Origin: Octopus vulgaris
Taxonomy: Eukaryota
Direction of reading: 5' to 3'
Length of the DNA: 64,000 nt
Assembly (NCBI GenBank): GCA_951406725.2
Contig: OX597839.1
Span: 23,746,001-23,810,000 of the forward strand
Positions 26,827-63,810 of the stretch are shown in pieces. The notes beneath the pieces were generated by a model that worked only from the letters and a program-made list of their open reading frames with translations, did not search any database and was not told the origin of the DNA. Numbering within the stretch: position 1 is the first letter of the stretch; each line of letters opens with the position of its first letter. The translations under genes and the position numbers were made by a program.

Positions 26827-26908
26827 ATGAAGTCTTCGTGTATTTGTCTGGTTCTTCTTCTCACTCTCTGCGTTTACCAATCAAGTGCCAACTATTATGG
26901 TAAAAGAG
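26827..26908 (+). CDS. Neuropeptide precursor (NdWFamide-like, NYYamide), coding exon 1: signal peptide + NYY-GKR
   Basis: GCACCATGA Kozak context; translates MKSSCICLVLLLTLCVYQSSA-NYY-GKR-(G). Basic N-terminus, hydrophobic core, S-x-A cleavage site, Gly amide donor plus KR; ends at consensus donor G|GTAAGT (26909-26914), phase 1. Confidence 0.9.
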
Positions 26909-27541
26909 GTAAGTTGGGCTTTGTTCTTCCTCTTCAAAAGACGTGACCCCTACATTCCTATTTTGCTTTTGTTTTTTGTTTTTTTTTTAAGAGCTAAACT
27001 AATGCCCCTTTCGATAAGTCTTGTCCCTCTTCTTTGGTCTCATATTCTCTTTCTTCCTTTCTTCTGGCTATTACTTCATGTGTGTGTGTGTGTGTGTGTG
27101 TGTGTGTGTGTGTGTGTGTGTGTGTGTGTGTGTGTGTGTGTGTGTGTGTGTGTGTGTGTGTGTATATATATATATATATATATATATATATACATATTAT
27201 ATATATATATATAAGTATATATATAGACACACACACACACACACATATATATATATACACATACACATATACATATATATATATATACATACACACACAC
27301 ACATATACATATGGATACATGGATATATATATATATATAAACATACACACATTATATATATGCATATATTGTTTAAAACAGTTTGATTCAATTCATGATA
27401 TATATATATATACATACATACATATACATACACACAGAGGGAGAGAGAAAGAGATACATTTATATATATATATATATATATATATATATATATATATATA
27501 TGTGTGTGTGTGTGTGTGTGTGTTTTATATATACTCTATAC

Positions 27542-27948
27542 TCTTTTACTTGTTTCAGTCATTTGACTGCGGCCATGCTGGAGCACCGCCTTTAGTCGAG
27601 CAAATCGACCCCGGGACTTATTCTTTGTAAGCCCAGTACTTATTCTATCGGTCTCTTTTGCCAAACCGCTAAGTGACGAGGACGTAAACACACCCGCATT
27701 GGTTGTCAAGCAATGCTAGGGGGACAAACACACACACACACACATATATATATATATATATATATATATATATATACATATATACAACAGGCTTCTTTCA
27801 GTTTCCGTCTACCAAATTCACTCACAAGGCATTGGTCGGCCCGGGGCTATAGCAGAAGACAGTTGCCCAAGATGCCACGCAGTGGGACTGAACCCGCAAC
27901 CATGTGGTTGGTTAGCAAGCTACTTACCACACAGCCACTCCTGCGCCT
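27542..27948 (-). mobile_element. SINE family A copy (intronic)
   Basis: Full length, high identity to 28775-29192. Confidence 0.85.
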
Positions 27949-28774
27949 ATATATCTATATAGATAGATAGATATACATATATTGTTTAAAACATTTTAAT
28001 TCGGTTCCATGCTACTTCAAGTTTCACAGGCCCTTAACAGGAGCCCCACACCATCAGGATTCTGGAATGCCTGAAGCCTCAAGAGGTCGGGCTACCATTA
28101 GAACCCTGTGAAACTTGTAAGTAACACAGAACCAACTCAAAATGTTTGAAATAATAATACATATAACTCCTGCTAAATGTATTGAGAACCCTCTTCTTTT
28201 TCATTTGTCCATTCACTCATGTGTGTGTACATATATATATATATATATATACACACACATATATACATATGTGTATATATATATATACACACACACACAT
28301 TTATATATATATACATATACCTATACATACATATATATCTATATATATATATGTACATATATATATATATATATATATACACACACACACATATATACAT
28401 ATGTGTATATATATATACATATGTGTATATATATATACACACACACACATTTATATATATACATATACCTATACCTATACATACATATATATATATATAT
28501 ATATATGTACATATATATATATATATATATATATATAAATGCACACACATGCAGATACGCACATACGAGAAAAACTAGTACTGAAATCCCAAAGGTAAAG
28601 CAAAATACTATTTTATCAAAGCCCAAAAGAAACTTGAGATATATAAAGTTTCGGATATTGGCCTTTATCGTAAGTGCCAATGCAGGAAACATTTGACTCT
28701 TGGGTCACTCTATAAATTCTACCAATTATTATTTTAAAAAAACGTATATATACTCTTTTTTTCTTTTTACTCCT

Positions 28775-29192
28775 TTTAATTGTTTCAGTCATTTGACTGC
28801 GGCCATGCTGGAGCACCGCCTTTAGTCGAGCAACTCGACCCCGGGACTTATTCTTTGTAAGCCCAGTACTTATTCTATCGGTCTCTTTTGCCGAACCGCT
28901 AAGTGACGAGGACGTAAACACACCAGCATCGGTTGTCAAGCAATGCTAGGGGGACAAACACAGACACACAAACACACACACACACACACACACATATATA
29001 TATATATATATATATATATACATATATACGACAGGCTTCTTTCAGTTTCCGTCTACCAAATCCACTCACAAGGCATTGGTCGGCCCGGGGCTATAGCAGA
29101 AGACACTTGCCCAAGATGCCGCGCAGTGGGACTGAACCTGGAACCATGTGCTTGGTTAGCAAGCTACTTACCACACAGCCACTCCTGCGCCT
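28775..29192 (-). mobile_element. SINE family A copy (intronic)
   Basis: Full length. Confidence 0.85.
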
Positions 29193-61269: not shown

Positions 61270-61677
61270 TATTTTACTTGTTTCACTCATTTGACTGCGG
61301 CCATGCTGGAGCACCGCTTTTAGTCGAGCAAATCGACCCCGGGACTTATTCTTTGTAAGCCCAGTACTTATTCTATCGGTCTCTTTGGCCGAACCGCTAA
61401 GTGACGGGGATGTAAACACGCCAGCATCGGTTGTCAAACAATGCTAGAGTGACAAACACAGACACACAAACATATACACACACATACATATATACATATA
61501 TATACATATATACGACAGGCTTCTTTCAGTTTCCGTCTACCAAATCCACTCACAAGGCTTTGGTTGGTCCGATGCTATAGCAGAAGACACTTGCCCAAGA
61601 TGCCACGCAGTAGGACTGAACCCGGAACCATGTGGTTGGTTAGCAAGCTACTTACCACACAGCCACTCCTGCGCCTA
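61270..61677 (-). mobile_element. SINE family A copy (intronic)
   Basis: Full length. Confidence 0.85.
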
Positions 61678-63347
61678 TGTATATTTTTTTATTAATATTT
61701 AGCAGATGCCCCACTGTGACTCAAGGTCCGAGAGTTTTTATGTGCTGGCGCTGTAATTCAGTAAGTGCCAACGCACAAAACTCTCAGCCCTCAAGTCACT
61801 CTGCTGCTTCTGCTAAATATTAAAAAAAAAATATGTGCTCCAGCATGACCACAGCCACATGGCTGAAACTAGTAAAAGAGTATATATTCTTATTTTCAGT
61901 TCTATTCCTCCTGCTGGCATCAACATACCTATATGTATATACTTACATATACCTACATATATGCATACATATACAAAAAGGGTGAAATATAATTAATTTA
62001 ATAAAATTAATAAATTTCACCTAGTAGTTTTTTCGGTATGGAAAAGACCATATTTGGTAAGAATTATATTAATTATAATAAAGGGTTAATTGCAGCAAGT
62101 TGCTCAAAACCACATACCGAAAATATTAGAAATAGCAGCCAAATAGATCATTATTTCTACTACCATCTTTGCCATATACGGGTTGCAAATTCTGTTTGTT
62201 TGTTTGTGGAGACTTTTTTTAATGGTAGTAGAAATAGTGATCTATTTGGCTGCTATTTCTAATATTTTCGGTATGTGGTTTTGAGCAACTTGTTGCAATT
62301 AATCCTTTATTATAATTAATATATGCATACATATATACATATATACATGCATCCACACACACACACACCCTAATTACTATGAAATGACTTGGTGACGAAC
62401 ATGCTTCATTGCATGTGATAAGGTACCAATCACTGCTTTGTGATCACCTTTCACAGAATGGTATAAAATTGTGCCATAACATAATGTAGAATACACATAA
62501 CAAGGATATGTCAGTATAATTTGGTAGATACATAACAAATATATTATTGCAAAATATATAAGATGTATAGGCTTGTCTCTTCAGGTGCCAGTGCCACTTA
62601 GAAAGCAGCGGTGCCAGTGATGCATAAGGGCACCCGTGCTGGTGGCACATAAGAAGCACCCAACACACTCTGTTGTGTGGTTGGCATCAGGAAGGGCATC
62701 CAGCCGTAGACACCATGCCACAACAGACAGTTGGAGTCTGGACAATTGCCTGGCTGGCCAGCTCCATGTTGAACCGTCCAACCCATGCCAGTATGGAAAG
62801 CAGATGTTAAATGGTGGTGGTGATGATGATGATGATGATGATGATGATGCTGATTATGATGATGATGGCGAAATCGTTCAATTTAGTACTGTATAAAACA
62901 GTACATTGCAAAATGATACAGTAGAAGATAGAACAAATATTTCCCTTGAATAATACTCTACTGATTAAAAGATTAATTCACAAATGAAATCAGACATGGC
63001 GGACATAGACATAAGAAAATTTGGGGTGGTCATGACTGGAACGACTTATCAAAGCTGAGCTGATACTAAACAACATCAACAATAGACAATATGGTAACAT
63101 AGGAAGATAGCAAGGTGGCAGAAGTGTTAGCACACCAGACAAAATGCATTACAATATTTCGTCGTTTATGTTTTGAGTTCAAATTCTACCAAGATCAACT
63201 TAGCCTTTTATCATTTCAGGGTCAATAAAATAGATACCAGTTATGTACTGGGGGTCAACATAATTGACAAATCCCTTGCCATGAAATTGCTGACCTTATG
63301 CCAAAACTAGAACCCAATATCATAATGTGATAATAATATGTTATTTG

Positions 63348-63580
63348 AAGGCGGCGAGCTGGCAGAAATGTTAGCATGCCGGGCGAAATGCGTAGCCGTA
63401 TTTCGTCTGCCGTTACGTCCTGAGTTCAAATTCCGCCGAGGTCGACTTTGCCTTTCATCCTTTCGGGGTCGATAAATTAAGTACCAGTTACGCACTGGGG
63501 TCGATGTAATCGACTTAATCCGTTTGTCTGTCCTTGTTTGTCCCATCTGTGTTTAGCCCCTTGTGGGTAGTAAAGAAATA
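63348..63580 (+). mobile_element. Young SINE family B copy, 16-bp TSD
   Basis: GATAATAATATGTTAT at 63329-63344 and 63581-63596. Confidence 0.9.
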
Positions 63581-63676
63581 GATAATAATATGTTATAATA
63601 CAGTTGTAGAACTTGCTCAAGGTTTCGATCTTTTATTTAATTTAGCATTTTCTCTTTGTCATTTATTTTTATTCAG

Positions 63677-63810
63677 GCGAAAAACTTGATGGTTTTCGTG
63701 AATATTTGACACAAAAGCTGGAAGCAGACCAGAATAATCAAGAAATGGAGGCCCGCGAAGTGTTGAAGACAATATCTACATTGATACAGCGAGCAAAACA
63801 TGTAAAATGA
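63677..63810 (+). CDS. Neuropeptide precursor coding exon 2 (C-terminal associated peptide, stop)
   Basis: Polypyrimidine acceptor TTTTCTCTTTGTCATTTATTTTTATTCAG|GC; in phase 1 it continues exon 1 as (G)EKLDGFREYLTQKLEADQNNQEMEAREVLKTISTLIQRAKHVK*. Non-repetitive sequence; total CDS 216 nt = 71 aa + stop. Confidence 0.82.

What the first reader, a model, noticed from the sequence alone, without database searches (positions are those of the whole stretch)
26827..63810. Hidden two-exon neuropeptide precursor predicting a divergent tripeptide, NYYamide
Seen: an 82-nt exon (signal peptide, NYY, GKR, canonical GTAAGT donor) and a 134-nt exon behind a strong acceptor join in phase 1 to give a 71-aa ORF that the ORF track misses. 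Established: molluscan NdWFamide precursors have this layout (signal peptide directly followed by N-aromatic-aromatic-GKR, then a short helical tail). Inference: this is an NdWFamide-family member whose mature peptide is Asn-Tyr-Tyr-NH2, with both aromatic residues changed, possibly unannotated.
Basis: partly seen in the sequence, partly recalled or inferred. Interest (0 to 1): 0.9.

Follow-up and report, generated by a model that had tools for sequence, protein, structure and literature searches.

The report
Cephalopod NdWFamide gene predicting NYYamide
A small spliced gene, likely of an octopus, is a member of the known snail heart-peptide (NdWFamide) family and is predicted to release the three-residue signal Asn-Tyr-Tyr-amide, a modest variant that other molluscs also encode.

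Summary
The 82-nt and 134-nt coding pieces lie where stated and join to 71 codons. Contigs from 4 of 4 runs (4 studies) carry the 26908|63677 junction; 3 of 4 show a third, non-coding exon 2.4 kb further on, outside the window. So the gene has three exons, not two. It is single-copy in its genome by three searches. An unnamed full-length relative is 37/64 identical across the junction and also has NYY-GKR. The published NdWFamide cluster holds a close squid precursor with NYF. Family membership is therefore well supported. The novelty was overrated: Tyr3 is the commonest third residue among 20 published precursors (13), Tyr2 is in the squid, and NYY-GKR is already in an unlabelled scaphopod sequence of a 2019 supplement. 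No paper naming NYYamide or an octopus member was found; two likely sources could not be read. The mature peptide, D-Tyr2 and cardiac action are inferred, not shown. This scan noted a related NYF-amide precursor earlier in an annelid genome, not this gene. Verdict: new member of a known kind, interest 0.3.

The parts
26429..26435 (+). TATAAAA, candidate TATA box
   Evidence: Seen in sequence; function inferred. The longest contig would start at about 26495 if exon 1 is contiguous.
26460..26826 (+). Likely 5' UTR of exon 1 (start approximate; an upstream intron is not excluded)
   Evidence: Contigs hold 412, 396 and 230 letters before 63675, which fits a contiguous exon 1 from 26495, 26511, 26677; only the last 30 letters were shown.
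26827..26889 (+). Predicted signal peptide, residues 1-21, cleavage predicted after Ala21
   Evidence: Lys2, hydrophobic core (7-residue Kyte-Doolittle mean up to 3.8), small residues at -3 and -1; same place in P0006 and in family members. SignalP not available.
26890..26898 (+). Asn-Tyr-Tyr, predicted mature peptide
   Evidence: the same codons stand in the loose ends of 4 of 4 runs; NYY also in P0006.
26899..26907 (+). Gly-Lys-Arg amidation and dibasic cleavage signal
   Evidence: kept in all family members seen.
26909..63676 (+). Intron 1, phase 1, 36,768 nt, GT...AG; 16% tandem repeats
63677..63810 (+). Coding part of exon 2: rest of codon 28, 43-residue C-terminal pro-region, TGA
   Evidence: 22/37 identical to P0003; predicted one long helix, mean pLDDT 92.
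63811..63839 (+). 3' UTR part of exon 2 (29 nt), followed by donor GTACGA at 63840
   Evidence: Loose end behind 63839 in 3 of 4 runs.
63840..64000 (+). Start of intron 2 (2,442 nt, runs out of the window). Exon 3, non-coding, lies outside the window: G000:C26:23812282 onward (L003:3282), about 260 nt, AATAAA at L003:3521
   Evidence: The loose ends match L003:3282 behind a pyrimidine tract and CAG; the longest contig ends at about L003:3505.

Best explanation
This is a single-copy, three-exon gene, likely of an octopus, whose 71-residue product is homologous to NdWFamide precursors and is predicted to release the amidated tripeptide Asn-Tyr-Tyr-NH2, likely with D-Tyr at position 2, as a likely heart- and vessel-exciting neuropeptide. 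Steps: (1) splicing across a 36.8-kb phase-1 intron and a 2.4-kb 3' UTR intron: shown in contigs. (2) Homology to the family: shown by sequence. (3) Signal peptidase cut after Ala21 exposes Asn as the free N-terminus: inferred, about 0.9. (4) Convertase cut at Lys-Arg, carboxypeptidase trimming and PAM amidation from Gly give NYY-NH2 (MH+ 458.203): inferred from the standard pathway, about 0.9. (5) A position-2 L/D isomerase converts Tyr2 to D-Tyr: inferred, about 0.55. (6) Release from neurons onto heart, vessels or gut muscle with an excitatory effect as in Aplysia: inferred, about 0.5. The conserved helical tail most likely serves folding or sorting of the precursor.
For: Junction in 4 of 4 runs, 4 studies. 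Best of 1854 acceptors. P0006 is 37/64 identical over both exons and has NYY-GKR right after its signal peptide. The Idiosepius precursor in the published NdWFamide cluster is about 34/64 identical (my count by eye). All 20 distinct published precursors seen have [N/H]-aromatic-aromatic-GKR directly after the signal peptide (one is 5'-partial). No second locus: exon 1 DNA 1 match, degenerate tripeptide-GKR-donor pattern 1 match, control 0, P0006 matches only these two exons. Aplysia CNS isomerase activity converts NWFa and GYFD and accepts Phe, Tyr and Trp at position 2 (PMC11277431). NdWFamide is cardioactive in Aplysia (PMC13542836 table; PMC3660236). The stop lies 29 nt before the last junction, inside the 50-55 nt limit that spares an mRNA from decay (rule recalled).
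Against: No peptide-level data at all. Tissue of the runs is not given, so neuronal expression is not shown. The runs are marked 'RNA? (a guess)' or '?', and no DNA run was laid as a control. Trp2, which names the family, is absent; the precursor has no Trp at all and lacks the C-terminal Trp seen in most members. D-isomerisation and cardiac action come from gastropods and are transferred by homology only; the effect of flanking residues on the isomerase is stated to be unknown. Cleavage site was judged by rule, not by SignalP. Genome searches score only the best candidates, so a distant paralogue may be missed.
Confidence: 0.8

Rival explanations
1. Same gene and same tripeptide, but all-L and with another job (central modulator, gut or reproductive muscle): the Trp-to-Tyr change came with loss of isomerisation or a changed receptor.
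For: Tyr2 is shared by the cephalopod sequences seen (window, P0006, Idiosepius) and a scaphopod, against Trp2 in 18 of 20 published precursors; the tail has lost its conserved Trp.
Against: The Aplysia isomerase activity accepts Tyr at position 2. Position-2 D-residue cardioactive peptides were isolated from Octopus minor brain (Iwakoshi 2000: title seen, content recalled).
Confidence: 0.35
2. The conserved C-terminal pro-region is itself the main signal, and the tripeptide is secondary.
For: The tail is as conserved as exon 1 against the relative (22/37 versus 15/27 identical) and is predicted to be a stable helix.
Against: Across phyla the fixed part is the tripeptide-GKR; the tails differ in length and sequence, and here the tail is 9 residues shorter than in P0006. 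The tripeptide is the form described as the neuropeptide in gastropods (PMC5364533 passage).
Confidence: 0.07
3. A venom-gland mimic of a prey neuropeptide, like the NdWFamide look-alike of cone snails.
For: Conus recruits this gene into venom by an alternative exon in an enlarged, repeat-rich intron (PMC13542836); intron 1 here is also large.
Against: Single copy, conserved in a squid-like relative, the same junction in all four runs. A survey of cephalopod venom glands that included an NdW model reported mimics of five other peptides only (bioRxiv 10.64898/2026.02.02.703354, passages).
Confidence: 0.04
4. Chance pairing of two unrelated pieces, or a processed copy that fakes the junction.
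For: 36.8 kb lie between the pieces; run type is not on record.
Against: Both pieces match one natural protein end to end; two canonical junctions stand in contigs; no intron-less copy was found in G000.
Confidence: 0.01

Closest known systems
Idiosepius notoides precursor 204382 in the NdWFamide cluster of De Oliveira et al. 2019 (PMC6425005, supplementary file 3)
   Same: Signal peptide, Asn-Tyr-x, GKR, then KLDGFRE and the second helical motif; about 34 of 64 aligned residues identical (counted by eye).
   Different: NYF instead of NYY; 80 residues instead of 71; keeps the C-terminal Trp.
P0006, unnamed 80-residue protein from public assemblies (12 contigs); about 59/80 identical to the Idiosepius precursor by eye, so likely a squid or cuttlefish
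   Same: NYY-GKR after the signal peptide; 37/64 identical. Its cluster neighbours P0003-P0005 begin with unrelated letters just before residue 28, which suggests an intron at the same place (inferred).
   Different: Nine residues longer, keeps the Trp; carries no name.
NdWFamide (Asn-D-Trp-Phe-NH2) of Aplysia and pulmonates; two precursor genes in Aplysia kurodai (title seen) and two in Deroceras
   Same: One tripeptide copy straight after the signal peptide, Asn-aromatic-aromatic-GKR, short tail.
   Different: Tyr-Tyr instead of Trp-Phe; one gene found here; D-residue and cardiac action shown there, untested here.
Antalis entalis 191187 (scaphopod; supplementary file 2 of PMC6425005)
   Same: NYY-GKR directly after a signal peptide, short precursor.
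   Different: Tail clearly more distant; not labelled, and not in the NdWFamide cluster of file 3 as far as that cut file could be searched.

Membership tests
NdWFamide precursor family (lophotrochozoan) | Short precursor (about 70-100 aa) with an N-terminal signal peptide | tested here: met
   71 aa; hydrophobic core and -3/-1 small residues. Rule-based; SignalP not available.
NdWFamide precursor family (lophotrochozoan) | Single [N/H]-aromatic-aromatic tripeptide directly after the signal peptide, followed by GKR | tested here: met
   Residues 22-27; same layout in the published members.
NdWFamide precursor family (lophotrochozoan) | Sequence homology of the C-terminal region to listed members | tested here: met
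   P0003 found at E 7.9e-5 among 1.84 billion proteins; P0006 37/64; link to the published Idiosepius member counted by eye only. No Pfam model matched.
NdWFamide precursor family (lophotrochozoan) | Trp near the end of the second helical motif of the tail (common, not universal, so a trait rather than a defining feature) | tested here: not met
   No Trp in the window's protein; present in most, not all, listed members (Dreissena and Tubulanus have Tyr).
NdWFamide peptide in the strict sense (Asn-D-Trp-Phe-NH2) | Mature sequence Asn-Trp-Phe | tested here: not met
   Asn-Tyr-Tyr in genome and in 4 of 4 runs. It is a family member, not NdWFamide itself.
NdWFamide peptide in the strict sense (Asn-D-Trp-Phe-NH2) | D-configuration at residue 2 | not testable with these tools
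   Not encoded in DNA; plausibility only from PMC11277431.
NdWFamide peptide in the strict sense (Asn-D-Trp-Phe-NH2) | Processed, amidated peptide in neurons; cardio-excitatory action | not testable with these tools
Venom doppelganger of NdWFamide (Conus type) | Venom-gland transcript with an alternative exon or a duplicated gene | tested here: inconclusive
   One locus and one junction seen, but tissue of the runs is unknown and contigs drop rare forms.

The most novel reading that the evidence does not exclude
Cephalopods (and scaphopods) use a Trp-free branch of the family, and the octopus peptide is Asn-D-Tyr-Tyr-NH2, an undescribed D-tyrosine cardioactive neuropeptide missed by gene annotation and by the 2019 molluscan survey. 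The natural series NWF, NWY, HWY, NFY, NYF, NYY would then be a ready ligand panel for finding the family's receptor and the still unidentified molluscan isomerase.
Probability: 0.35. Interest if true: 0.55.

Novelty: new member of a known kind. Interest (0 to 1): 0.3.

Why it matters
It adds a missing neuropeptide gene, with exact exon structure, to a cephalopod-type genome: no named record of it turned up in the protein collections searched, so expression atlases built on annotation may lack it. It predicts a specific mass (MH+ 458.203) and a specific chirality test. D-residue neuropeptides are few, and a tyrosine version would widen the known substrate range in vivo. It does not open a new kind of signalling.

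Tried and rejected
No RNA holder listed: none of the 24 runs is on record as RNA; this is no evidence on expression. The intron bins had no depth in the 4 runs, and no contig showed the 70-nt copy of exon 2 or listed other letters in exon 2; contigs show presence, not absence, so neither is used as evidence. Depth figures (6.6 to over 1400) were not used as expression levels. The joined form in DNA runs was not given (table 5b). Word-index protein search with exon 2: nothing at 23-76 aa, 0 of 5 candidates at 77-2000 aa. Exact look-ups of the two exon translations: not in the collection, as expected for partial sequences. Pfam: nothing for either exon or P0006; three weak sub-threshold hits for P0003 rejected. 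ESM Atlas: best 0.81, bacterial, rejected as chance. No fold search: a single helix would match anything. Stop read-through or A-to-I recoding of the TGA or of the NYY codons was considered; the contigs show the genomic letters, rare editing is not excluded. The second exon-2 match was considered as an alternative exon and rejected: 70 nt only, no acceptor at its start, about 690 nt past the poly(A) signal, next to a dispersed repeat. Literature: no relevant paper among the 4 hits for NYYamide, NYYa, NdYYamide, NYY-amide, NYYGKR, the 20 of 634 listed for Asn-Tyr-Tyr and related terms, or (0 hits); by their titles none of the 14 and 20 listings for NdWFamide terms is about a cephalopod member; two octopus papers have no NdW, NWF or NYY in the main text.
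Full report
Setting. The window is G000:C26:23746001-23810000 of a 2.80-Gb genome in 227 contigs, AT-rich and full of simple repeats.

The observation. 26827-26908 (82 nt) encodes 21 signal-like residues, NYY, GKR and one spare base, and is followed by GTAAGT. 63677-63810 (134 nt) follows a pyrimidine tract and CAG. Joined they give 71 codons and a stop.

Splicing. I laid 4 of the 24 listed runs (X1, X5, X12, X18; 4 studies, 4 organism labels; assembled contigs; type 'RNA?' or '?') on 63600-63900. 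In 4 of 4 the contig enters at 63675 with a loose end equal to the end of exon 1, including the NYY codons (30 of 30 letters shown in three runs, 23 of 23 in X12; compared; the two letters AG fit either side). In 3 of 4 the contig leaves at 63839, and its loose end matches L003:3282 (C26:23812282), behind a pyrimidine tract and CAG, with GTACGA as donor. So the gene has three exons: intron 1 is 36,768 nt, intron 2 is 2,442 nt and lies in the 3' UTR, 29 nt after the stop. An AATAAA at L003:3521 fits the longest contig, which ends near L003:3505. Upstream, contig lengths fit a contiguous exon 1 starting below a TATAAAA at 26429, but only 30 letters were shown, so a 5' UTR intron is not excluded. 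No DNA run was laid, and the tissue is unknown. A processed genomic copy that could fake the junctions was not found.

Independent check by homology. A full HMMER scan of 1.84 billion representatives with exon 2 gave one hit, P0003 (E 7.9e-5, 59%). A profile of its cluster plus exon 2 gave P0006, a complete 80-residue precursor with NYY-GKR after its signal peptide. P0006 matches exon 1 (15/27) and exon 2 (22/37), 37/64 overall, and in 123 kb around the locus has only three hits below E 0.5: these two exons and a short copy of exon 2. Of 1854 AG sites joined to exon 1, the stated acceptor scores 113 against the P0006 tail; the best site outside that exon scores 31. None of P0003-P0006 carries a name.

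Family. Supplementary file 3 of PMC6425005 (searched by terms; file cut when stored) shows 11 adjacent precursors, three of them named NdWFamide: NWF 3, NWY 3, HWY 3, NFY 1, NYF 1. The NYF one, from the squid Idiosepius, is about 34/64 identical to the window's protein and about 59/80 to P0006 (both counted by eye). PMC8557429 (part 18 of 387 of its supplement read) lists 11 phoronid and nemertean NdWFamide precursors, two shared with the first list. Of the 20 distinct ones, 18 have Trp2 and 13 have Tyr3; none has NYY. File 2 of PMC6425005 holds an unlabelled scaphopod sequence with NYY-GKR right after a signal peptide. The scallop member is in print as NWYamide (PMC5996578 passage). So only Tyr2 is unusual, it is shared with a squid, and NYY is not confined to this animal. 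That survey included Octopus data, yet no octopus member was found in the readable part. The gene is single-copy by three searches: exon 1 DNA, a degenerate tripeptide-GKR-donor pattern (1 match, reversed control 0) and P0006; these score only best candidates. It is thus the likely orthologue, not an odd paralogue beside an NWF gene.

Differences. The precursor has no Trp, lacks the Trp near the end of the tail that most members keep, and is 9 residues shorter than P0006. AlphaFold2 on a 5-row alignment models the 43-residue tail as one helix (mean pLDDT 92, pTM 0.53), which supports 'helical tail' but says little more.

Mechanism. Shown: gene, splicing, reading frame, homology. Inferred: signal cleavage after Ala21 (hydrophobic core, Ser at -3, Ala at -1; same register in relatives), then dibasic cleavage, trimming and amidation (standard prohormone pathway, own knowledge), giving NYY-NH2, MH+ 458.203. 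D-Tyr2 is plausible because Aplysia CNS extracts isomerise NWFa and GYFD and accept Phe, Tyr and Trp at position 2 (PMC11277431, section 5 and passages), and octopus brain has yielded cardioactive peptides with a D-residue (title, content recalled); I put it at 0.55. A cardio-excitatory role is transferred from Aplysia (passages of PMC13542836, PMC3660236, PMC5364533) at 0.5. Rivals: all-L peptide with another role (0.35, overlapping with the main reading on steps 1-4), active tail (0.07), venom mimic (0.04), chance pairing (0.01).

Novelty. No paper naming NYYamide or an octopus NdWFamide gene was found (listings, plus term searches in the main text of two octopus papers). This is limited: the Sepia neuropeptidome is not held, the supplement of PMC13542836 is unreadable, and the cephalopod venom preprint built an NdW model from orthologues sought in six molluscs including Octopus vulgaris (passages), so its closed supplements may hold this sequence. 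Verdict: a real, apparently unannotated gene; new member of a known family with a mildly new predicted peptide. Interest 0.3.

Noticed in passing
L003:4212-4281 (G000:C26:23813212-23813281): A 70-nt copy of exon 2 (69/70 identical) about 690 nt past the poly(A) signal. It directly follows a 123-nt piece of a high-copy dispersed repeat (2732 candidates, 94-98% matches on many contigs, some with an inverted 45-nt copy nearby, as for a terminal-inverted-repeat element). It looks like filler DNA captured at a transposon end.
   Followed up: partly
window 9623-10576 (-), with open frames at 11206-12039 and 12175-12639 (-): Reverse transcriptase fragment of a LINE-like retrotransposon (Pfam RVT_1, E 1.1e-11); the two upstream frames had no convincing family.
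   Followed up: partly
window 63811-63839: Read on past the stop, the frame gives RKHST, faintly like RKYDT near the end of the squid-like tails; the octopus tail may have been shortened by a new stop. Three matches in five residues, could be chance.
   Followed up: no
window 26523-26582: A 19-codon upstream ORF inside the microsatellite of the likely 5' UTR, out of frame with the CDS.
   Followed up: no
P0003-P0005: These proteins start with unrelated letters just before the exon-2 region, as if called on genomic contigs; this suggests the same intron position after GKR in the squid-like relative.
   Followed up: partly
window 26909-63676: No nested gene was evident in intron 1: stop-free frames of 150 codons or more are mostly simple repeats; one ordinary-looking frame (43510-43962, -) had no Pfam match.
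   Followed up: partly
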